The position numbers and the translations under genes were made by a program. Source: a virus. From it: DNA of 33,069 nucleotides. A model generated the notes under the pieces. The model ran no database searches. It saw nothing but the letters and a program-made list of their open reading frames with translations, and was not told the DNA's origin. Positions 4,966-26,801 of the stretch are shown one piece after another; position 1 is the stretch's first letter, and each line of letters begins with the position of its first letter. The DNA lies in UHGV virus genome UHGV-1427736, one strand, 5' to 3'.

Positions 4966-6156
4966 TTAATTGCTGTTAACCGAGGTGACCAGATTTGCCA
5001 GGTATTTATCGGTAATACGCTGGCGCAGGGTCAGGTTTTCGAGAGGAGGCACCGGGGTATAGTCGTAGTCGATATACAGTTTTCCGGCCTTGAGGGTTTC
5101 CGCATCGTTGGATTCTTCGCTGAACCAGCAGGTCGCATCCACGATATAGCCGTTTGTTTTCAGCTCACGGAATTTGGCATTGATGCCGTCAACGATGTCG
5201 CGAATCAGCGTTGCGGTGATGGGCTTGTCCACCGCCCACATGTGCGCCTCAGCCATCGTGTCGGCCAGCACCTGCGCGGTGCGGGTGTAGTTTTCAAAGA
5301 GGAACAGCGGGTCATCAGAGCAGGTACGGTTACCCCAGAAGCGGAAACCGTCGCGGCGAATCAGCGTTGTGACGCCAGACTCGTTCAACAGGTCAGCATC
5401 GGTGCCGGACTCCTGCAAATCCCAGAATACAGATGCGCTGATGCCGGTAACACCGTTTACCCCGACGTTGGACAGCGTTTTATGCCAGCCCTGCTCCTGG
5501 TCGATTTTAGCGCGCAGACCCAGCGCACGGGCGGTGGCATACGCGGTGGCGGTGGTACTGGTGACCGTATCCCATGCGAGGAAATCCGGCCAGATGACCA
5601 TCAGCTCACGCTGGCTGAAATTCTGGCGGTAGGCTTTCACCTCGGAAATGGTCTTACAGCCCCATGCGCTGATATATCCGAAAGCGCGCAGCTTCTGACA
5701 GACGGATGCTAGTGCAACAGCCACCTCTTTGGTATCCAGTCCCGGCACACCGAGAATACGCGGTTTAACACCGGTTACCGACTCCGCCGCCAGCAGGGCT
5801 TTCAGTCCGGTGTACTGACCGTTTTCGTCGGTGGTGCCGATGATATTGGAAACGGTCTGCGCAAGTTTCGTTTCCTCGTCGTCGCCGGTGCCGTCTTCCA
5901 CACGCACGACAACGGTGACCGGTTTTGACTGGTCGGCGATGGCCTGCAACGATGCCGCCAGCGTGCCTTTTTTACCGGCCTTTGCAATTGCGCTCTGCAC
6001 ATTGGTAATCAACACCGGTTTATTGAGGGGGAAGGTTTCCGCATCCGCATCGCTGGCCGTGCAGACCATGCCGACAATGGCAGTGGATACGGTGGAAATG
6101 ACGCGGGTGCCGTCGTTAATCTCCAGCACCTGCACGCCATGATGATAGTCACTCAT
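4966..6156 (-). CDS. FI: Contractile tail sheath protein gpFI
   Basis: Sheath-protein-sized ORF in the P2 FI position. The ORF-track start at 6309 gives a 51-aa N-terminal extension; I place the start at the ATG at 6156 (MSDYHHGVQVLE...), which has a GGAG RBS. Confidence 0.85.
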   Translation of the reverse strand: MSDYHHGVQVLEINDGTRVISTVSTAIVGMVCTASDADAETFPLNKPVLITNVQSAIAKAGKKGTLAASLQAIADQSKPVTVVVRVEDGTGDDEETKLAQTVSNIIGTTDENGQYTGLKALLAAESVTGVKPRILGVPGLDTKEVAVALASVCQKLRAFGYISAWGCKTISEVKAYRQNFSQRELMVIWPDFLAWDTVTSTTATAYATARALGLRAKIDQEQGWHKTLSNVGVNGVTGISASVFWDLQESGTDADLLNESGVTTLIRRDGFRFWGNRTCSDDPLFLFENYTRTAQVLADTMAEAHMWAVDKPITATLIRDIVDGINAKFRELKTNGYIVDATCWFSEESNDAETLKAGKLYIDYDYTPVPPLENLTLRQRITDKYLANLVTSVNSN

Positions 6157-6655
6157 CCGTTTAACTCCGTGGTTAATGGGTGCAACTATTTTCTGTTGTG
6201 CAGAGCATGAGACGCTATTTGACCTGGCTGGCCAGTGGATGAAACAACAGATAAAGAAAAGGCGGGCAATCAGCCCGCCAGCCTTGATTTGCACTCTCTC
6301 AATTTCCAACTGACAAAATACGTAGCCAAAACGCTATCAAATCTGACAGCCTGCTTTGAGCGAGAAACAGACATGGATGGCATACAGTGAAAGTAGCCGC
6401 ACAATGAGCATCACTGCAATTCTGAATTCAAGCTCTAATACTATTGAGACCGTATCATACAGTCACTCGCAAAAATTACTTTACCTGAGTGAAAAAATTG
6501 ATTCCAAGCAAAATGAAAACTTGTAATTCATTATTACATGCATAATAATGAATAAAAACTTGAGCTATATAAACCAAAGTTGTTCCGAATAGTCCGTTGA
6601 GACATCACTCGAATTATAGGAATACAAGGTTTTATTTTTATAAGGAATCGCTCCC

Positions 6656-8920
6656 ATGGGTTTGCAAAGCATAAGAATAAAAAACTTACTATCATTTAAT
6701 GATGTAATAATAAATTCCCTAGAGGATGTAAATTGCATTGTAGGGATGAATAATGTTGGCAAATCCAATCTTATGAAAATATTGAAATATTTTTACGACA
6801 AACTTGACGACATAAAAGTAATACCTCCTGATTTTCATTCTAGTTATACTCCTTCAGGGTCAATAACATTGACTTATGATGTAACAAGAATAAAGAGAAT
6901 TGTAATGAACCCTAATAACAATGGTCGCTTTCACAAGCATATTTATAACACTTTATTTAAGCCACAATCATTCATCCGAAAGCCGCAGAAATTCTGTCTT
7001 CCTTTCATATCTCCTTTGGGTTTCCAAAGAAAAAGCACTTATAGCATTACACTCACAATTTCTAAAGATGACTCCGTAACTTGGTCAATTAGCACACCAA
7101 ATGCCCGGCATCTAATTAAAACTCTATTTCCTTTTTTCCATATTGAAACCAGACACATTGACTTATACGACTGGAATAGCATATGGAAAATGCTCAGCAG
7201 TATAAATTCCTTTAATTTCTCTGAAATAAAAAAAGAAGAACTCCTTGAGTTTTTGAATGAGAAAATATCAACTAAGCGGGGTAGTTACAAGAAGTATATA
7301 GAAAGAGTTGAAAATGTAATCCATACTAAACCTTACACCTATAAAGATAAAGTCGTTAATTATCTAAAAATAGTTTTAGATGGCGATATTTTCATAAATA
7401 AAGGTGAAGAACTACATGTTCAGTCGGATGGCACGAACTCTCACAAATATCTTGAAATTATACTTAGCCTATTAATTTCATTAACAAGAACAGAATTTAT
7501 CAATCCAATTATATATATTGATGAACCTGAAATTGGGCTACATCCAAAACTTAGCGAGAACTTTATTGAGAACATAAGCCTGACATATAAAAAGTATGAT
7601 AAAACCCATGAGGAAATTGAGCCTGGAAAATATTCAACACCATATCCAACTCTTATATTTAGCACTCATTCTCCGAGTTTACTAAAACTCACGCTAAAAT
7701 CTTTCTTACATAAACAGCAGGTTTTGCATTTTTCAAAAGAACGTGACAACTCGACCAAAATTTCAAAATTAAACTCTAAATATAATGACATTAGATTTAT
7801 AAATATGCTTAGCGATAATGAGGCCCGTCTATTCTTTAGTGAATACATTCTATTTGTAGAGGGCGCCACAGAAGTTGAATTGTTTAGAAATTATAATCTG
7901 CAAAAGCTGTTTCCAGTACTTAAAAGGTTAGATGTGTATGATTGCGATGAAGTAATGTTGAAAAATATAAACCCCAGCTACTCAAATGCAGCCATCCCAT
8001 TTCTAGTAGTAAAGGATATTGATCAGATTGCCGTTGTTGACTTCGAACATGAACAATTTAAATTTAATTCGAAAGGGAAATCAATTATTAATAAAATCAT
8101 TAAGAGAGATAAACTACACTATTTTTCGACATACCAAAAACCTTTTCTTAACGCAGCAAAATTTCTTTTAAGCCAAGATGAAAGGAAAGTAACATTCAGT
8201 GAAAATGGCCTAAAATTCAGACACTTCAGTATAGGCAGAGTTATAAGCGCAGTTAATTTTTTATCCTCTAAAGATAATGTTTATTATACTTCTACAACGA
8301 TAGAAGGCTCATTGATCAATGAATTCTCTTTAGAGACATTCTCTTTATGGATCATTGACATAGTAATGAGAAGCTTTAATGTAAATAATAAAAACCCTGT
8401 AAAAATGATTAATGCTCTGCTGCAAAAATACGATATTAAAACCCAATCAAAACAACTTTTTCCCAAAATACTTTCAAAATGTGAAACAAATCATAACCTA
8501 CCATTGCGACACATGAGATTATTGAAAATCATTAAAATTAGATATGCTAAAGAAATAATTGATGAGTTTAAAAAAACCATCCCCGACGTAAAAGACCAAG
8601 TTGCTATCTTGCGCCTTATTTTTAGTGGCAAAACAGAAACTCTTGTAAGTATAGAAATGCATTATAAAATTGATCAAAAACCGATACGGCAAGATATATT
8701 GGATTATATCAAAGCATTAAAGTCAGAAAATTTCTCTTTTATGAGTTCTTACATAGGAAAGACTTCTGGATGGGTTACAAGCTTCATTGATTTTAGCCTT
8801 AATCATTATTCAGCCCTAGATAAAGAAAATGTCGAAAAAAAATTCCGCTTGGCTTTTCCTGAAATTTCGCATATCATCGATCATGCTTCTTCTTCGATAG
8901 AAGCTGGAGGGCTCAAATGA
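6656..8920 (+). CDS. OLD-family nuclease: ABC-type ATPase fused to a C-terminal Toprim-like domain
   Basis: 754 aa. Walker A GMNNVGKSN (aa ~30), Walker B/D-loop IIYIDEPEIGLHP, H-loop LIFSTHSPS; then FVEGATEVELF (aa ~400) and VVKDIDQ (aa ~455), consistent with Toprim Glu and DxD motifs. Gene is markedly AT-rich compared with the flanking phage genes. Confidence 0.7.
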   Translation: MGLQSIRIKNLLSFNDVIINSLEDVNCIVGMNNVGKSNLMKILKYFYDKLDDIKVIPPDFHSSYTPSGSITLTYDVTRIKRIVMNPNNNGRFHKHIYNTLFKPQSFIRKPQKFCLPFISPLGFQRKSTYSITLTISKDDSVTWSISTPNARHLIKTLFPFFHIETRHIDLYDWNSIWKMLSSINSFNFSEIKKEELLEFLNEKISTKRGSYKKYIERVENVIHTKPYTYKDKVVNYLKIVLDGDIFINKGEELHVQSDGTNSHKYLEIILSLLISLTRTEFINPIIYIDEPEIGLHPKLSENFIENISLTYKKYDKTHEEIEPGKYSTPYPTLIFSTHSPSLLKLTLKSFLHKQQVLHFSKERDNSTKISKLNSKYNDIRFINMLSDNEARLFFSEYILFVEGATEVELFRNYNLQKLFPVLKRLDVYDCDEVMLKNINPSYSNAAIPFLVVKDIDQIAVVDFEHEQFKFNSKGKSIINKIIKRDKLHYFSTYQKPFLNAAKFLLSQDERKVTFSENGLKFRHFSIGRVISAVNFLSSKDNVYYTSTTIEGSLINEFSLETFSLWIIDIVMRSFNVNNKNPVKMINALLQKYDIKTQSKQLFPKILSKCETNHNLPLRHMRLLKIIKIRYAKEIIDEFKKTIPDVKDQVAILRLIFSGKTETLVSIEMHYKIDQKPIRQDILDYIKALKSENFSFMSSYIGKTSGWVTSFIDFSLNHYSALDKENVEKKFRLAFPEISHIIDHASSSIEAGGLK

Positions 8921-9034
8921 GCTGACGCATGCCGTCACTTGCTCCAGCAAACACTAGCTCGGATTGTCTTGCGTCCGCTAAGCCGCTTTAAGCCTCACGG
9001 GGTGTAAAGATGTTATTGGTATCGAAGAGGAAGC
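8885..9034 (+). ncRNA. Candidate retron msr-msd (non-coding RNA) flanked by a1/a2 inverted repeats
   Basis: GCTTCTTCTTCGAT (8885-8898) and ATCGAAGAGGAAGC (9021-9034) form a 14-bp inverted repeat with one G-U wobble, enclosing ~122 nt that is GC-richer than the flanks. Inside: stem GCTGGAG (8903-8909) / CTCCAGC (8942-8948) around two small hairpins (GCTCA..TGAGC and TGACG..CGTCA). The repeat lies directly upstream of the RT and a2 overlaps its RBS. Confidence 0.3.
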
Positions 9035-9040
9035 TTTTAC

Positions 9041-10138
9041 ATGAAACATAAAATTAATAAAATTAACAATGATTTTTATAAAAATTTTTATCTAAGAGAA
9101 ACATTCTCCGATGATATTATTATGACTCACGGAGTCCCTGAGATTTCCAATGACGATTATAAAAGCATTTCATTAAAGAATAGATTATGTTTCACTATAA
9201 GAAAAAGCTCCCCGCATAAAAAAATACAAGAAAGACTTATAAAAAATTTCCTAGTAAAAGTTCCTCTTAGCTCACCTGCAATTGCCTATCGTAAAAAATT
9301 AAACTATTTGAATTTTCTAGAACCTCATATCCATGGTGAGAACTTTTGTCGAATTGACTTATGTAATTTTTTTCATAACATAAACTATAACTTTGCAAGG
9401 GAGTGTTTCAAATCCTACTTTGAAGATGAATATCTGGTAAATAAAAAAATCAAAGTTATTGATGCATTTTTAAATAGTTTATCTATTGAGATTGTAGTCA
9501 ACAATAAAAAGAAAAAAATATTTCCAATGGGATTCGCCACATCACCTTTCATATCCAATATAATTTTCAGAAAGTTAGATATTTTAATTAAAAGTTTGTG
9601 TGACAAAAGAAGCATCATTTACACTCGTTATGCTGATGATATGCTTTTTTCGAGCTCCGGGAAAGACAAACTTCTTGGAAGTGAACATTTTGACAACGAG
9701 ATATCAACTATTGTCAATACGGCAGGACTGTCCCTCAACAAACATAAAAAAATATTTAAGAAAGGCATAATCTCACTAAACGGCTATGTAATAGAAAATA
9801 AAAATGGAGGGGGAGAGAGAGGGAGTATAAGAATATCTAATGGAAAAATGTATTTAATACGGAAAGCACTAGATAAATTTAAAAAGGGATATTCTAAAGA
9901 GCATATTTGCAAAAAAGTATTTTCTGTTAAATCACCAACTGTCAAGTATAATAACAATGCAGATCAGTTTGTAACGGATTTTTATAATTCACAATTCTCT
10001 AATAAGTTAGCTGGTTATCGTTCATATTTAATATCATTAGTAAAATTTAATGATAAATTCAGATGTTTTCACGAAAACGAAATCACCAAATACTCAGTGA
10101 TTATTGATGAAATTTCTAATGCACTGCTAAAACCCTAG
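9041..10138 (+). CDS. Retron-type reverse transcriptase
   Basis: 365 aa. RT motifs IFPMGFATSPFISNIIFRKLD and IIYTRYADDMLF (YADD box), plus PHIHGENFCRIDLCNFF, align closely with the retron Ec86 RT as I recall it. Size and lack of extra domains fit a retron RT. GAGGAAG RBS. AT-rich. Confidence 0.8.
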   Translation: MKHKINKINNDFYKNFYLRETFSDDIIMTHGVPEISNDDYKSISLKNRLCFTIRKSSPHKKIQERLIKNFLVKVPLSSPAIAYRKKLNYLNFLEPHIHGENFCRIDLCNFFHNINYNFARECFKSYFEDEYLVNKKIKVIDAFLNSLSIEIVVNNKKKKIFPMGFATSPFISNIIFRKLDILIKSLCDKRSIIYTRYADDMLFSSSGKDKLLGSEHFDNEISTIVNTAGLSLNKHKKIFKKGIISLNGYVIENKNGGGERGSIRISNGKMYLIRKALDKFKKGYSKEHICKKVFSVKSPTVKYNNNADQFVTDFYNSQFSNKLAGYRSYLISLVKFNDKFRCFHENEITKYSVIIDEISNALLKP

Positions 10139-10158
10139 CCTTAGAAAGTTAATGTTTT

Positions 10159-10176
10159 GGCCCTAAAGCAAGGGCC
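10159..10176 (+). terminator. Hairpin downstream of the RT gene (possible terminator)
   Basis: GGCCCT-aaagca-AGGGCC stem-loop about 20 nt after the RT stop, but followed by TTAATAG rather than a clean T-run. Confidence 0.3.
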
Positions 10177-10560
10177 TTAATAGTAAAAATAGTTACCAGC
10201 ATAAGTATTCCTTCAACTAATCACACAAATTAACGTTAGCAACGTTCCCTTTTTACACCGTCTGAGCACTAAGCTGTCGGTCATTCTGGTCTACCATACT
10301 ATTATACGTAACATCCAAGAGTGTTCCTGCAAACGGTCGTAGAAAATGCGGGCTTCGCCATTTTCTGGCCGACGCCGGTCTCGTCGAGTTCTTCTGACTG
10401 TTCAAGTGCAAATGCGCCTGTAGGTATCCCTACAAAAGAAACCATCAACTTTTAGATAGTATCTGGCACTCCAACTCCCGCTGTTGACTCGGAGCGGACT
10501 GTCAGATTAGGCTTTACTCTGTACCATAGATACGTTAGCTCACTCCAGAGATCATACAAC

Positions 10561-11088
10561 TTATTGCGGCATGTCCGGCCATTCAGGATTTGAAGGGTCC
10601 ACACGACTGACCAGAACGCTGTAGCGTTCCCATGCATCCAGTCGACTGCGCTCCTCACCTGTTGCCATATTCAGCCTGACAGCGCGCTCCAGCGGCAAAA
10701 TTACGGATTCAGCTTCGGAAAGCAAAGCTGCCTTATGTAATTCCGCTAGTTTCTGCTGTTCGTCTGCCGTATAAATCCGCTTAATCACGGCACCATCCTT
10801 AAACATCCATTTACCTGAGTCATCAGCACGCCGGTTGGCAGTAATATCAGGAACCTCAACGACGCTAAAACCTTCAGGATTAAGCGTTGAAGCATCTCTG
10901 GTGATGGCGACAATAATATTATTTTCATCGTAAACAATCTTTATTGTGTCTGGCTGAAAATTACTTACTTCCTCATACCAGTTTTTTCCGTCTTCGGACC
11001 ATAACCAGATAACATCAAAATTCTTTGTTAGCTGATATTGCTCTTTTGTTTTTGGATTACCTGACTTAATGTTCTTTAAATGCTGCAT
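10561..11088 (-). CDS. G: Tail fiber assembly protein gpG
   Basis: 175 aa, same length as P2 gpG, directly downstream of H. Confidence 0.85.
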
Positions 11089-24958: not shown

Positions 24959-25378
24959 CTAATCATCTTCTAAAGGTGGAATTTTGATGCCACTAATTAG
25001 CAGTACTTTCCGGTATGCCTCAAAAATAATGTTGTGTGTTTTTTGTAAATCATCGAGCATTTTTTGCCGTCCTGCTGGGGTATCTTTGGCAAAATTATGA
25101 GCGCGAAAAAAATCATGTGCCAAGTAGTTTCTGGCTTTAAGAGCATCTGACACATACTCCAGTGTATCAGCATCCTCCACCATCCTAGACTTCAGTGCGT
25201 AATTCAATTTACCCAGCGTGTATTTATCCATTTCTAAAAACTGTTTTTTCAGCGACTGTATATCTTTCCCCTGACTCATATCATACTCAGTGATAACATT
25301 TATCAACTCAGTCTCCAGTAATTGAGCTGCTTCCGAAGCATAACCAAATTTCCAATAAACCGTATCAAGCGTCACCAT
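24959..25378 (-). CDS. Small hypothetical protein with an Rx4H (HEPN-like) motif; partner of the adjacent HNH nuclease
   Basis: 139 aa, AT-rich, with no P2 counterpart I recognise. Contains ARNYLAHDFF (R-x4-H). GGGGAA RBS 8 nt ahead of the ATG; 91 bp downstream of the HNH gene on the same strand. Confidence 0.5.
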   Translation of the reverse strand: MVTLDTVYWKFGYASEAAQLLETELINVITEYDMSQGKDIQSLKKQFLEMDKYTLGKLNYALKSRMVEDADTLEYVSDALKARNYLAHDFFRAHNFAKDTPAGRQKMLDDLQKTHNIIFEAYRKVLLISGIKIPPLEDD

Positions 25379-25469
25379 ATAATCTATTCCCCATATAACA
25401 AATCACACCCCAAATTAAATCATAATACATAATTAAATCTAACGCCTCGCTGCACCAGAAGAAGTCATG

Positions 25470-26801
25470 TTAACGCTTATCATGGAACTTTTTCCATTTT
25501 GTCATCAACTTTCCAGCATCAAGTTCTACATGATGCGGTTGTAGAGTTTTACCCTCAAACATAGTTTTGTGGATACAATTAATAGAAAAATGAACCGTTA
25601 AGTCCTCTGGATTAATCCCCATTAATCCTTTATCAAACATTCGGTGTAAACTTACTTCAAGTAACAGGCCATTAGATGTGTTATTATTTGCTGATTCTGT
25701 TATTGCTTCAATATGTGCGGCTTCCAATATCCCCTCTGGCAATGGATAGCCAGTAATAGCACATCTGCCATTGAAGTTATCCCAAACACGGCGTTTGAAA
25801 TCAGCTTGATCTCCAGCATGACGGACTTTGTGAGTAACCTCGACTGTTCGTCCTGTAGCACAGGTATCGTTTGCGGCCTTGAAAGGATTAGTTAGACTTT
25901 CATTAATGGCTATATCCGTTCCATCCATGATAAGAGATATTTCATTATTGGGTTCGGATGATGTTAATGGACTTATGTACTGATTGCTTAAAAAAGTCAT
26001 ACTAGATTCTTCATCAGTCGCGAGTTTCCACGCTTCTGATTGTGTCATTGTTAGCAATGCCGTTTGATAAACTTGCTTATTAAAATAACGTTTATCTTTC
26101 TTGTCACTCCCCATATTAATAGTACTAGATTTAATCGGAAGTGTTTTATCACCAATTAGTAGATCACGTATTTCTACAGTCTCTTCTAAGGTATCAATAG
26201 GAGCTACTATAGGGTTAGTCAACGGGTTATCTACATGATCTACGTGGTTGTGTCGTAAATGCCACTCTATAGCACTATCTTTTATATGTATCTCGCAGAC
26301 AGGGCATACAATAAGCCCCATAGATGTTACAGGTAGCTTTTTGCCACCGATTAAGCGTAATGTATTTGCATTCTGGTTATGTACTTTCTTTTGGTTCTGT
26401 GTCAGTACACTACGCTTAGCCTCTAAACGGGTCGGAATCTTAGCAAGATTAAGCGATTTACGGCTCTCTTGTCTCTCAAGATCATAGATCCGAATCCCTG
26501 CTCCAGTTTTGATTTTTGTCCACATAGAGATAGAACTAAGGAATTTATGTCCATGTACTTTTTCATAATCAGCATAAGCTTGCAAAGTAGCAGTGGAACT
26601 ATCTAATCCTTTTTTACGGAGTGCTGTATATTGCTGAAAAAGATTAATAGCATGAGCTGTAATAGAGCGCCTATTCTCTATAATTTGCGTTTTTTTTGCT
26701 GCTTGTTCTGCTTGCAATGCTTTTTGTTCAGGGGTAAGCGACTTCTTTTTGGCTTTCTTGGTTCTTTTCTTACTCAAAGTTTTCTTACTGTTATTGTTCA
26801 T
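25470..26801 (-). CDS. Zinc-finger / HNH (His-Me finger) nuclease with a basic N-terminal tail
   Basis: 443 aa. Lys-rich N-terminus (MNNNSKKTLSKKRTKKAKKKS); C2H2-like CPVCEIHIKDSAIEWHLRHNH; C-terminal HNH motif GRCAITGYPLPEGILEAAHIEAI...NGLLLEVSLHRMFDKGL. AT-rich gene between cos and A. Confidence 0.65.
   Translation of the reverse strand: MNNNSKKTLSKKRTKKAKKKSLTPEQKALQAEQAAKKTQIIENRRSITAHAINLFQQYTALRKKGLDSSTATLQAYADYEKVHGHKFLSSISMWTKIKTGAGIRIYDLERQESRKSLNLAKIPTRLEAKRSVLTQNQKKVHNQNANTLRLIGGKKLPVTSMGLIVCPVCEIHIKDSAIEWHLRHNHVDHVDNPLTNPIVAPIDTLEETVEIRDLLIGDKTLPIKSSTINMGSDKKDKRYFNKQVYQTALLTMTQSEAWKLATDEESSMTFLSNQYISPLTSSEPNNEISLIMDGTDIAINESLTNPFKAANDTCATGRTVEVTHKVRHAGDQADFKRRVWDNFNGRCAITGYPLPEGILEAAHIEAITESANNNTSNGLLLEVSLHRMFDKGLMGINPEDLTVHFSINCIHKTMFEGKTLQPHHVELDAGKLMTKWKKFHDKR

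What the first reader, a model, noticed from the sequence alone, without database searches (positions are those of the whole stretch)
8885..9034. Candidate retron msr-msd between the effector and RT genes, bounded by a 14-bp inverted repeat
Retron ncRNAs are bounded by a1/a2 inverted repeats. Here a 14-bp repeat (8885-8898 and 9021-9034, one G-U wobble) encloses a GC-richer ~122-nt segment with nested stem-loops. a1 lies in the last codons of the OLD gene; a2 overlaps the RT Shine-Dalgarno; an AG follows a1 (candidate branching G at 8900 or 8903). An ncRNA between effector and RT would be an atypical layout. The repeat is low-complexity (CTT/GAA-rich) and 122 nt is short for msr-msd, so chance is not excluded.
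Basis: seen in the sequence. Interest (0 to 1): 0.6.

Follow-up and report, generated by a model that had tools for sequence, protein, structure and literature searches.

The report
Eco8-family retron msr-msd RNA gene
The inverted repeat is real and bounds the template RNA (msr-msd) of an anti-phage retron closely related to the well-studied Retron-Eco8, carried here by a P2-like prophage; the call is correct, but the system is a known kind and its gene order is normal for that family.

Summary
A 15-bp inverted repeat (8885-8899 / 9020-9034, one G-U) encloses a 120-nt, 56% GC island between an OLD-type ATPase-TOPRIM gene (6656-8920) and a retron RT gene (9041-10138).

The interpretation as a retron msr-msd is supported. 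The segment is homologous to the experimentally characterised Retron-Eco8 ncRNA. I found the Eco8 locus in a metagenome contig (L009), and every published Eco8 nucleotide number maps onto it.

A covariance model finds the same RNA upstream of the RT in about 45 related loci. The a1/a2 stem and three inner helices show extensive compensatory changes (about 90% of cells paired, against 37-50% in slid controls).

By homology:
- the branching G is G8900, not G8903;
- msr is about 8900-8957;
- the msd template is about 8949-9018, giving a predicted 70-nt msDNA.

Effector-ncRNA-RT is the family norm (Millman 2020; 41 of 45 loci here). The rival sites upstream and downstream lie outside the conserved cassette and give no model hit.

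This is a new member of a known kind (type I-B2 retron; RT 41% and effector 49% identical to Eco8), in the sheath/tail-fibre hotspot of a P2-like prophage. Interest is low.

The parts
6656..8920 (+). Effector gene: OLD-family ABC-ATPase + TOPRIM nuclease (754 aa), retron type I-B / Eco8 family. Its last codons contain a1.
   Evidence: PADLOC ATPase-Toprim_I-B, E=1.6e-210, full length. PDB 'Retron Eco8 OLD nuclease', E=3e-227. 49% identity to the Eco8 effector over 752 aa, with Walker A K36, EGATE and DID motifs and the msdDNA-contacting F92/H95/Y97 conserved. RefSeq product 'retron Eco8 family effector endonuclease'.
8849..8877 (+). Possible internal promoter for the ncRNA (TTGGCT-17-TATCAT). 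The -10 element ends 7 nt before a1. Weak evidence.
   Evidence: Consensus scan, 9/12 matches, but the number of hits in the region equals the shuffle expectation. It is homologous in position to the -10 that Millman et al. used (BPROM) to set nt 1 of the Eco8 ncRNA. The conserved TATNAT also encodes the effector's D/H-I-I motif and moves with that motif in distant relatives, so conservation is confounded by coding.
8885..8899 (+). a1 (IRa1), the 5' arm of the ncRNA closing stem; overlaps effector codons A-S-S-S-I.
   Evidence: Inverted repeat I1. Helix 1 in family alignments: 94-97% of cells paired, and 12 of 15 pairs with changes on both sides in 47 sequences.
8900..8900 (+). Predicted branching (priming) guanosine, homologue of Eco8 rG18.
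   Evidence: Invariant column G18 in A3. In L009 (canonical Eco8) the same column is nt 18 by the published numbering. G18C abolishes Eco8 defence (PMC13402713).
8900..8957 (+). Predicted msr RNA (58 nt). Elements: dsRa 8903-8909 / 8942-8948; RSLa 8910-8923; RSLb 8924-8936; RNA-DNA hybrid/termination segment AAACAC 8949-8954; 3' end at G8957 (= Eco8 rG81).
   Evidence: Column-by-column homology to Eco8 rG18-rG81 (published features). MFE fold. Covariation: dsRa 7/7 pairs and RSLb 4-5/5 pairs with changes on both sides.
8949..9018 (+). Predicted msd template (70 nt). It is read from G9018 (templates dC1) back to A8949 (templates the last dT). Contains the DSLb template 8955-8980 and the DSLa template 8986-9009.
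   Evidence: The same rule applied to L009 gives exactly the published 75-nt Eco8 msdDNA, with every named nucleotide matching. The DSLa outer stem shows covariation (helix 4). The ends are inferred, not measured.
9019..9019 (+). 'Opposing G' facing the branching G at the base of the a1/a2 stem.
   Evidence: Conserved G before TATC in the family. Described for Eco8 in PMC13402713.
9020..9034 (+). a2 (IRa2), the 3' arm of the closing stem. Contains the RT Shine-Dalgarno-like GAGGA (9027-9031).
   Evidence: Anti-SD duplex -6.0 kcal/mol at GAGGA, 9 nt before the ATG. a2 ends 0-10 nt before the RT start in 39 of 45 loci.
9041..10138 (+). Retron reverse transcriptase (365 aa), type I-B.
   Evidence: PADLOC RT_I-B, E=2.7e-106. 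Pfam RVT_1. PDB Retron Eco8 RT, E=6.5e-88. 41% identity to the Eco8 RT. RYADD at 196-200 is invariant in 36 homologues.
10159..10176 (+). 6-bp GC-rich hairpin (GGCCCT-AAAGCA-AGGGCC) 20 nt after the RT stop; a possible end of the operon transcript.
   Evidence: MFE and centroid fold. It lies inside the cassette conserved with Serratia and Pectobacterium, which ends at 10194. It has no T-run and is not called by the terminator scan.

Best explanation
Window 8885-9034 (+) is the msr-msd non-coding RNA gene of a three-part type I-B2 (Retron-Eco8 family) anti-phage retron. The other two parts are the OLD-type ATPase-TOPRIM effector upstream (6656-8920) and the RT downstream (9041-10138).

Shown here:
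- The RNA is homologous to the Eco8 ncRNA.
- Its a1/a2 stem and inner helices are maintained by compensatory substitutions across about 45 loci.
- It always sits between an OLD-like ORF and the RT, on their strand.

Inferred from Eco8 biochemistry and cryo-EM (PMC13402713; bioRxiv 10.64898/2025.12.04.692459):
- The transcript folds so that a1 pairs with a2.
- The RT primes from the 2'-OH of G8900 and copies the template from G9018 back to A8949, stopping at the conserved AAACAC segment. This gives a roughly 70-nt msDNA joined 2'-5' to a roughly 58-nt msr RNA.
- msDNA, RT and the OLD nuclease assemble into an autoinhibited complex.
- Binding of a phage SSB to the msDNA releases the nuclease, which degrades DNA and aborts the infection.

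The cassette is cargo in the variable locus between the tail sheath and tail-fibre-assembly genes of a P2-like prophage. It presumably protects the lysogen against other phages.
For: Proteins:
- PADLOC gives full-length hits: ATPase-Toprim_I-B 1.6e-210 and RT_I-B 2.7e-106.
- PDB hits to the Retron Eco8 OLD nuclease (3e-227) and RT (6.5e-88).

RNA homology:
- nhmmer with the window segment alone finds the region just upstream of the RT in 26 loci, including L009.
- L009 encodes the Eco8 proteins.
- Published Eco8 positions G18, RSLa 28-45, RSLb 46-61, U72/A73, C78, G81, dA15, dT30, A25-T29, C20/G26 and the 75-nt msd length all fall on the right bases of L009.
- The window aligns to L009 through all these elements.

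Structure:
- On a structure-blind MAFFT alignment of 17 sequences, 89.7% of cells pair against 45-50% when partners are slid. 19 pairs show double changes against 4-9 in the slid controls.
- On 47 distinct sequences, 90.9% pair against 37-44%, and 31 of 35 pairs show double changes.
- The covariance model scores the window site at 144 bits; the next plus-strand hit scores 12 bits.
- The model finds plus-strand hits next to the RT in about 45 loci, about 30 of them not in the seed.

Layout and conservation:
- A 700-830 aa ORF ends 8-52 nt inside the RNA in 41 of 45 loci.
- The ncRNA is about 70% identical to those of L004 and Eco8, while the RT proteins are only 41-43% identical.
- The effector residues that contact msdDNA SL1 in Eco8 (F92, H95, Y97) are conserved.
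Against: - No expression, msDNA or defence data exist for this locus; everything functional is transferred from Eco8, whose proteins are only 41-49% identical.
- The predicted 70-nt msDNA does not fold better than shuffles as free DNA (z = +0.6). Its second hairpin (DSLb) is shorter than in Eco8 and could not be aligned, so 'two DNA stem-loops' is not established.
- The RT residue that stops synthesis in Eco8 (F51) aligns with C50 here, with F51 adjacent, so the exact 3' end of the msDNA is uncertain by a few bases.
- Rfam has no matching family.
- The covariation counts on A5 come from a model-fitted alignment and lean towards the structure.
Confidence: 0.93

Rival explanations
1. The conserved structure is mainly a cis-regulatory mRNA element between the two genes (RBS occlusion or translational coupling of the RT to the effector), not a reverse-transcription template.
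For: - a2 carries the only SD-like motif for the RT, and it is fully paired with a1 in the fold.
- a1 lies inside the effector ORF in 41 of 45 loci, and a2 ends within 10 nt of the RT start in 39 of 45.
Against: - The homologous Eco8 RNA is reverse-transcribed. msDNA is seen by gel and cryo-EM with a 2'-5' link at G18, and G18C kills defence.
- The inner conserved elements (GAUAG, AAACAC-UAG, CUUUA..CAC..GUG..UAAAG) match RT-binding, termination and effector-binding parts of the msDNA. A simple RBS switch does not need them.
- A regulatory role may exist in addition to the template role, but not instead of it.
Confidence: 0.03
2. The retron is a decayed relic: the RNA is recognisable, but the system no longer makes msDNA or defends.
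For: The cassette is rare in E. coli: only 2 of 5426 complete genomes carry it. No experimental data exist.
Against: - Both ORFs are intact and full length against their HMMs. Catalytic motifs are present (YADD, Walker A K36, EGATE, DID).
- a1/a2 pair perfectly apart from one G-U.
- The whole cassette 6617-10194 is conserved at 81-83% nucleotide identity in Serratia and Pectobacterium, and at about 74% in two metagenome contigs. The RNA is more conserved than the genes. This indicates purifying selection.
Confidence: 0.03
3. The inverted repeat is a chance low-complexity match (CTT/GAA-rich), and the true ncRNA lies upstream of the effector (6310-6655) or downstream of the RT (10139-10560).
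For: The arms are pyrimidine- and purine-rich. One of 300 shuffles reached 15 bp.
Against: - The covariance model gives no hit above 8 bits in either flank.
- The flanks fold unremarkably (z = -1.9 and -1.4).
- The flanks lie outside the cassette shared with other genera (6617-10194).
- a1/a2 co-vary across the family, for example GCTTCGCACCTGATAG / TATCAGGGCGAAGC and ACTTCGGTTCCGATAG / TATCGGAACCGAAGT.
Confidence: 0.01

Closest known systems
Retron-Eco8 (E. coli 200499; type I-B2; Millman et al. 2020; cryo-EM structures 2025-26)
   Same: - Same three parts in the same order and on the same strand (OLD-type effector, ncRNA, RT).
- ncRNA alignable end to end: identical a1 core GCTTCTTCTTCGATAG, the same branching-G context, the same termination block (AAAxAC-UAG) and the same DSLa core (CTTTACAC...GTG...TAAAG in DNA).
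- a1 in the effector's last codons (ASSSIEA in both).
- The effector residues that contact msdDNA are conserved.
   Different: - RT 41% and effector 49% identical.
- ncRNA 150 nt against 165 nt; predicted msDNA 70 nt against 75 nt; msr 58 nt against 64 nt.
- RSLa, RSLb and the dsRa stem differ by compensatory changes; DSLb is shorter.
- a1/a2 is 15 bp here and 17 bp in Eco8.
- Located in a P2-like prophage hotspot.
- Not tested experimentally.
Second E. coli Eco8-family lineage (for example strain 675SK2, locus L004; 36 complete genomes)
   Same: Same architecture. ncRNA about 71% identical over 250 nt, with an identical a1 and an identical 31-nt DSLa block.
   Different: RT only 43% identical. 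a2 carries two one-sided changes that swap which positions are G-U. The inner stems differ by compensatory changes. The locus is flanked by IS630 remnants rather than P2 tail genes.
Classical retrons (Ec86/Eco1, Ec73, Ec78, Ec83)
   Same: a1/a2-closed ncRNA, branching G at the end of a1, YADD RT, and msDNA acting as a sensor that holds an effector in check.
   Different: - In those retrons msr-msd usually starts the operon upstream of the RT, and the effector genes do not overlap it. Here the ncRNA is wedged between effector and RT and overlaps both the effector stop region and the RT ribosome-binding site.
- RT similarity is low (E about 1e-14 to Ec86).
- Eco8-type msDNA is reported to have two DNA stem-loops rather than one.
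P2 Old protein and Abi-P2 (P2-EC30 RT), other cargo of P2-like phage variable loci
   Same: All are defence genes carried in variable loci of P2-like phages. Old shares the ATPase-TOPRIM architecture (PADLOC Old, E=8e-16).
   Different: Old acts without an RT or msDNA. Abi-P2 is an AbiK-like protein-primed polymerase, not a retron RT (PMC9508834).

Membership tests
Retron (generic) | ncRNA closed by complementary a1/a2 repeats | tested here: met
   15-bp stem. 94-97% of cells paired across the family, and 12 of 15 pairs with changes on both sides.
Retron (generic) | Conserved branching guanosine immediately 3' of a1 (with an opposing G before a2) | tested here: met
   G8900 is an invariant column and equals Eco8 rG18 by the published numbering. 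G9019 is in the opposing position. Its chemical role was not tested.
Retron (generic) | msd region with stem-loop(s) that becomes the msDNA | tested here: inconclusive
   The template hairpin homologous to Eco8 DSLa is present, and its outer stem co-varies (helix 4). The second hairpin is predicted only by single-sequence folding. The free 70-nt DNA folds no better than shuffles.
Retron (generic) | Retron-clade RT with a YADD active site and the conserved region X His and region Y Gly | tested here: met
   RT_I-B HMM, 2.7e-106. RYADD 196-200, H96 and G248 are invariant in 36 homologues. The exact NAxxH and VTG letters of Mestre et al. are not reproduced; only their most conserved residues are.
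Retron (generic) | Production of branched msDNA (2'-5' RNA-DNA link) | not testable with these tools
   Needs msDNA isolation and sequencing. Shown only for the Eco8 homologue.
Retron type I-B2 / Retron-Eco8 family | Associated OLD-like protein: N-terminal ABC ATPase plus TOPRIM with motif IV EGxxE and motif V DxD | tested here: met
   ATPase-Toprim_I-B, 1.6e-210. EGATE and DID are aligned with the Eco8 E402 and D450-D452 region. The definition is from Mestre et al. Table 1.
Retron type I-B2 / Retron-Eco8 family | Gene order effector - ncRNA - RT on one strand, with a conserved intergenic region of more than 100 nt | tested here: met
   (41 of 45 loci). Literature.
Retron type I-B2 / Retron-Eco8 family | ncRNA homologous to the Eco8 ncRNA | tested here: met
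   nhmmer hit to L009, E=2.4e-15. The covariance model scores the window at 144 bits and L009 at 143 bits. Both were in the seed. About 30 non-seed loci are also found.
Retron type I-B2 / Retron-Eco8 family | Abortive-infection defence triggered by phage SSB binding to the msDNA | not testable with these tools
   Known for Eco8 only.
Rfam RNA families (any, including retron msr) | Match to a curated covariance model | tested here: not met
   No hit in 8885-9034, even at E up to 10. The Eco8-type ncRNA matched no Rfam family in this search.

The most novel reading that the evidence does not exclude
The overlap may be a built-in switch. a1 lies inside the last codons of the effector gene, and a2 is the RT ribosome-binding site. 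One transcript would then alternate between two exclusive states. In the first, ribosomes finishing the effector melt a1, freeing the SD so that the RT is translated; this couples RT output to effector output. In the second, with no ribosome on a1, a1/a2 closes, the RT ribosome-binding site is hidden, and the RNA serves as the reverse-transcription template.

This would help set the 1:1:1 stoichiometry needed for the autoinhibited complex. It would also explain why the effector tail 'ASSSIE' tracks the RNA rather than the protein: distant relatives keep the pairing but not the peptide. I found no mention of this in the Eco8 papers I could search.
Probability: 0.3. Interest if true: 0.4.

Novelty: new member of a known kind. 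Interest (0 to 1): 0.2.

Why it matters
- It adds a correctly delimited, unannotated ncRNA gene to a locus that RefSeq annotates only as two proteins.
- It gives a divergent natural variant of the Eco8 msDNA: predicted 70 nt, with different RSLa, RSLb and DSLb. That variant could be used to test which msDNA features set phage-SSB specificity, or as another retron scaffold for editing.
- It documents that Eco8-type retrons travel as cargo in the sheath/tail-fibre variable locus of P2-like prophages.
- It does not change how retrons are understood. A defence-system annotator would already call a type I-B retron here.

Tried and rejected
- **Rfam.** A scan of 6000-11000 at E up to 10 found nothing at the site.
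- **GenBank phage collection.** A megablast of the cassette found no match.
- **Genome-contig scan.** Run with the single RT protein, it gave only two close loci. Diversity came instead from a profile scan of metagenome and viral contigs.
- **P2-EC30 lead.** I asked whether the RT known from the P2-EC30 variable locus is this system. It is not: that RT is Abi-P2, an AbiK-like polymerase. The original paper is not held.
- **Internal promoter.** TTGGCT-17-TATCAT ends 7 nt before a1 and matches the position Millman et al. used for Eco8. However, promoter-like hits in the region equal the shuffle expectation. In distant relatives the TATNAT moves with the effector's D-I-I codons rather than staying at a fixed distance from a1. 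I keep it only as a possibility.
- **Rival ncRNA sites.** 6310-6655 and 10139-10560 give no model hit and weak fold z-scores, and they lie outside the conserved cassette.
- **Free-DNA fold of the predicted msDNA.** Not better than shuffles, so I do not claim stable DNA hairpins from energy alone.
- **Minus-strand reading.** It scores only 26 bits, which comes from the symmetric closing stem, against 144 bits on the plus strand.
Full report
**Observation.** The longest inverted repeat in 8700-9200 has arms at 8885-8899 and 9020-9034. It is 15 nt long with one G-U pair, and 120 nt separate the arms. Only 1 of 300 dinucleotide-preserving shuffles of that region produced a stem this long. The enclosed segment is a GC island: 56% GC, against 23-35% in the two flanking genes. 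Folded as RNA, 8880-9040 gives -58.7 kcal/mol with a1 and a2 paired around nested hairpins; z = -3.6, and no shuffle of 200 folds as well. a1 covers effector codons A-S-S-S-I, and the effector stop (TGA 8918-8920) lies 20 nt further on. a2 holds the only Shine-Dalgarno-like motif before the RT start codon: GAGGA at 9027-9031, with the ATG at 9041.

**The two genes.** ORF 6656-8920 matches the PADLOC model ATPase-Toprim_I-B over its full length (E=1.6e-210). ORF 9041-10138 matches RT_I-B (E=2.7e-106). Their best solved-structure relatives are the Retron-Eco8 OLD nuclease (E=3e-227) and the Retron-Eco8 RT (E=6.5e-88). Identity to Eco8 is 49% for the effector and 41% for the RT. The TOPRIM motif is EGATE followed by DID. 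By the table in Mestre et al. 2020 this is subtype I-B2. RefSeq annotates the identical locus in E. coli UPEC85 as 'retron Eco8 family effector endonuclease' plus 'reverse transcriptase domain-containing protein', with no RNA feature.

**Genomic context.** The window is an almost complete P2-like prophage. The cassette sits between the tail sheath gene and the tail-fibre-assembly gene, on the opposite strand to both. In other E. coli genomes, only the outer ends of the queried interval (6310-10560) match, and the annotated genes between those ends differ: for example a SIR2-family protein with a PIN-domain protein, a DUF4145 protein, or hypothetical proteins. This is therefore a variable cargo locus. 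Only 2 of 5426 complete E. coli genomes carry this exact cassette. Four IMG/VR viral contigs carry an identical RT.

**Is the layout atypical?** No. [quoted passage not shown] Later structural papers draw the locus as effector, ncRNA, RT (PMC13402713). Among 45 related loci that I collected, 41 have a 700-830 aa ORF ending 8-52 nt inside the 5' end of the RNA. In 39 of the 45, the RT start codon follows a2 by 0-10 nt.

**Homology to the characterised Eco8 ncRNA.** A profile scan of metagenome and viral contigs with 36 RT homologues returned 160 loci. nhmmer, using the window segment alone, hits the region immediately upstream of the RT in 26 of them, always on the RT strand. One of these, L009, encodes the Eco8 proteins as deposited in the PDB. 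Setting nt 1 at L009:3299 reproduces every published coordinate:
- branching rG18, RSLa 28-45 and RSLb 46-61;
- U72/A73 at the termination site, the hybrid segment A73-C78, and the msr end at G81;
- a2 ending at nt 165, the length given by Millman et al.;
- a template from A73 to the G before the opposing G of exactly 75 nt, the published msdDNA length;
- dA15, dT30, the A25-T29 bubble and C20/G26 all falling on the right bases.

The window aligns with L009 through all of these elements. The a1 core GCTTCTTCTTCGATAG is identical. The blocks AAACAC-TAG and CTTTAAGCCTCACGGGGTGTAAAG differ from Eco8 by a few bases. The stems in between differ by paired substitutions, for example GCUGGAG/CUCCAGC here against GCUGAGG/CCUCAGU in Eco8.

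**Covariation.** On a MAFFT alignment of 17 non-identical sequences, made without reference to structure, I imposed five helices taken from the Eco8 structure (a1/a2, dsRa, RSLb, DSLa outer and DSLa inner). In that test, 89.7% of cells form standard pairs, against 45-50% when the 3' partners are slid by 1-3 columns. Nineteen pairs show changes on both sides, against 4-9 in the slid controls. No shuffle of 500 reaches the observed values for the percentage paired, pairs with double changes, cells with double changes or the covariation score; 16 of 500 reach the count of further pair types.

A covariance model built on this alignment scores the window site at 144 bits. The next plus-strand hit in all 33 kb scores 12 bits. 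The minus-strand reading scores 26 bits, which comes from the symmetric closing stem. Across the fetched loci, the model finds one plus-strand hit next to the RT in about 45 loci, about 30 of them outside the seed. On that alignment of 47 distinct sequences, 90.9% of cells pair against 37-44% in the slid controls, and 31 of 35 pairs show double changes. In a1/a2, 12 of 15 pairs show double changes, and the remaining three, all in the four-pair GAUA/UAUC block next to the branching G, never vary. This second alignment is fitted to the model, so it leans towards the structure; the first is not. The compensation is visible by eye, for example GCTTCGCACCTGATAG with TATCAGGGCGAAGC, and ACTTCGGTTCCGATAG with TATCGGAACCGAAGT.

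**Anatomy in window coordinates (by homology; the ends are inferred).**
- a1: 8885-8899. Branching G: 8900.
- dsRa: 8903-8909 with 8942-8948. RSLa: 8910-8923 (the effector stop codon lies in its loop and stem). RSLb: 8924-8936.
- Termination/hybrid block AAACAC: 8949-8954. msr 3' end: G8957.
- msd template: 8949-9018. DSLb template: 8955-8980. DSLa template: 8986-9009.
- First templating base: G9018. Opposing G: 9019. a2: 9020-9034.
- Predicted msDNA: 70 nt, 5'-CAATAACATCTTTACACCCCGTGAGGCTTAAAGCGGCTTAGCGGACGCAAGACAATCCGAGCTAGTGTTT-3'.

**Rival sites.** The cassette shared with Serratia marcescens and a Pectobacterium strain (81-83% nucleotide identity) and with two metagenome contigs (about 74%) spans 6617-10194. 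Most of 6310-6655 and of 10139-10560 therefore lies outside the module. Neither flank gives a model hit above 8 bits, and both fold unremarkably (z = -1.9 and -1.4).

**Mechanism.**
- Shown here: a conserved, structured RNA homologous to a proven retron template, placed between intact homologues of the Eco8 effector and RT.
- Inferred from Eco8: priming at G8900; synthesis of a roughly 70-nt msDNA that stops at the AAACAC block; assembly with RT and the OLD nuclease into an autoinhibited oligomer; activation by phage SSB binding to the msDNA; and non-specific DNA degradation with abortive infection.
- Consistent with transfer of this mechanism: the effector residues that grip msdDNA SL1 in Eco8 (F92, H95, Y97) and the DSLa bases they contact are conserved.

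**Caveats.**
- There are no experimental data for this locus.
- The predicted msDNA does not fold better than shuffles as free DNA.
- DSLb is shorter than in Eco8 and could not be aligned.
- Eco8 RT F51, which stacks on A73 to stop synthesis, aligns with C50 here, with F51 adjacent. The exact 3' end of the msDNA is therefore uncertain.

**Overlap of RNA and coding signals.** In this family the 5' arm of the RNA is always inside or against the end of the effector ORF. In most loci the 3' arm is the RT ribosome-binding region. The peptide encoded by a1 is not conserved across the family (ASSSIE, VSSSID, RLRFR, IEKKL), whereas the pairing is. The RNA therefore appears to be the constrained partner. 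This suggests, but does not show, that effector translation and a1/a2 folding are mutually exclusive and that RT translation is coupled to effector translation. I found no discussion of this in the Eco8 papers I could search.

**Promoter.** A promoter-like TTGGCT-17-TATCAT ends 7 nt before a1, at the position Millman et al. used to define nt 1 of the Eco8 ncRNA. Its conservation is confounded by the D/H-I-I codons, and it shifts with them in distant relatives.

**Verdict.** The 'atypical layout' and 'too short' concerns are unfounded, and the branching G is G8900. This is a new, divergent member of the known Retron-Eco8 / type I-B2 family in a P2-like prophage hotspot. It is of low general interest, with a modestly interesting open question about translational coupling.

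Noticed in passing
window 24959-26801 (-): A second AT-rich island (36-40% GC against about 55%) lies between the replication endonuclease gene and the portal gene, which is the other variable locus of P2-like phages. It holds a 443-aa protein with a C-terminal HNH_2 domain (Pfam 6.6e-11; weak PADLOC 'HNH' hits) and a 139-aa protein with no family match. This may be another defence cargo.
   Followed up: partly
window 6528-6553 (+): A perfect 10-bp palindrome, TTCATTATTA-CATGCA-TAATAATGAA, lies about 100 nt upstream of the effector start. It overlaps a promoter-like site (TTGTAA-17-AATAAT, 6521-6549). It is outside the part of the cassette shared with Serratia and Pectobacterium (which starts at 6617). 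It could be an operator or promoter acquired with the P2 context.
   Followed up: no
window 8885-8920 and related loci: The effector C-terminal peptide is dictated by the RNA arm a1: ASSSIE(A) in the Eco8-like clades, and different peptides where a1 has co-varied. The effector stop codon lies anywhere from inside a1 to inside RSLa in different lineages.
   Followed up: partly
L004 (E. coli 675SK2, NZ_CP027701.1 2993387-2996878) and 35 other complete E. coli genomes: A third Eco8-family lineage (RT 43% identical to the window RT) is much commoner in E. coli than the window's cassette: 36 genomes against 2. In L004 it is flanked by IS630 remnants and degraded phage genes rather than by an intact P2 prophage.
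   Followed up: partly
window 10159-10176 (+): A GC-rich 6-bp hairpin 20 nt after the RT stop lies inside the conserved cassette. It has no T-run, so it is not a canonical intrinsic terminator.
   Followed up: no
L019, L034, L035, L039 (metagenome contigs): In several distant family members, the ORF that starts right after a2 is 440-460 aa instead of about 365 aa. Several long RT homologues in the protein search (P0102, P0114) carry an extra Pfam PF03118 domain. These may be RT fusions within type I-B.
   Followed up: no
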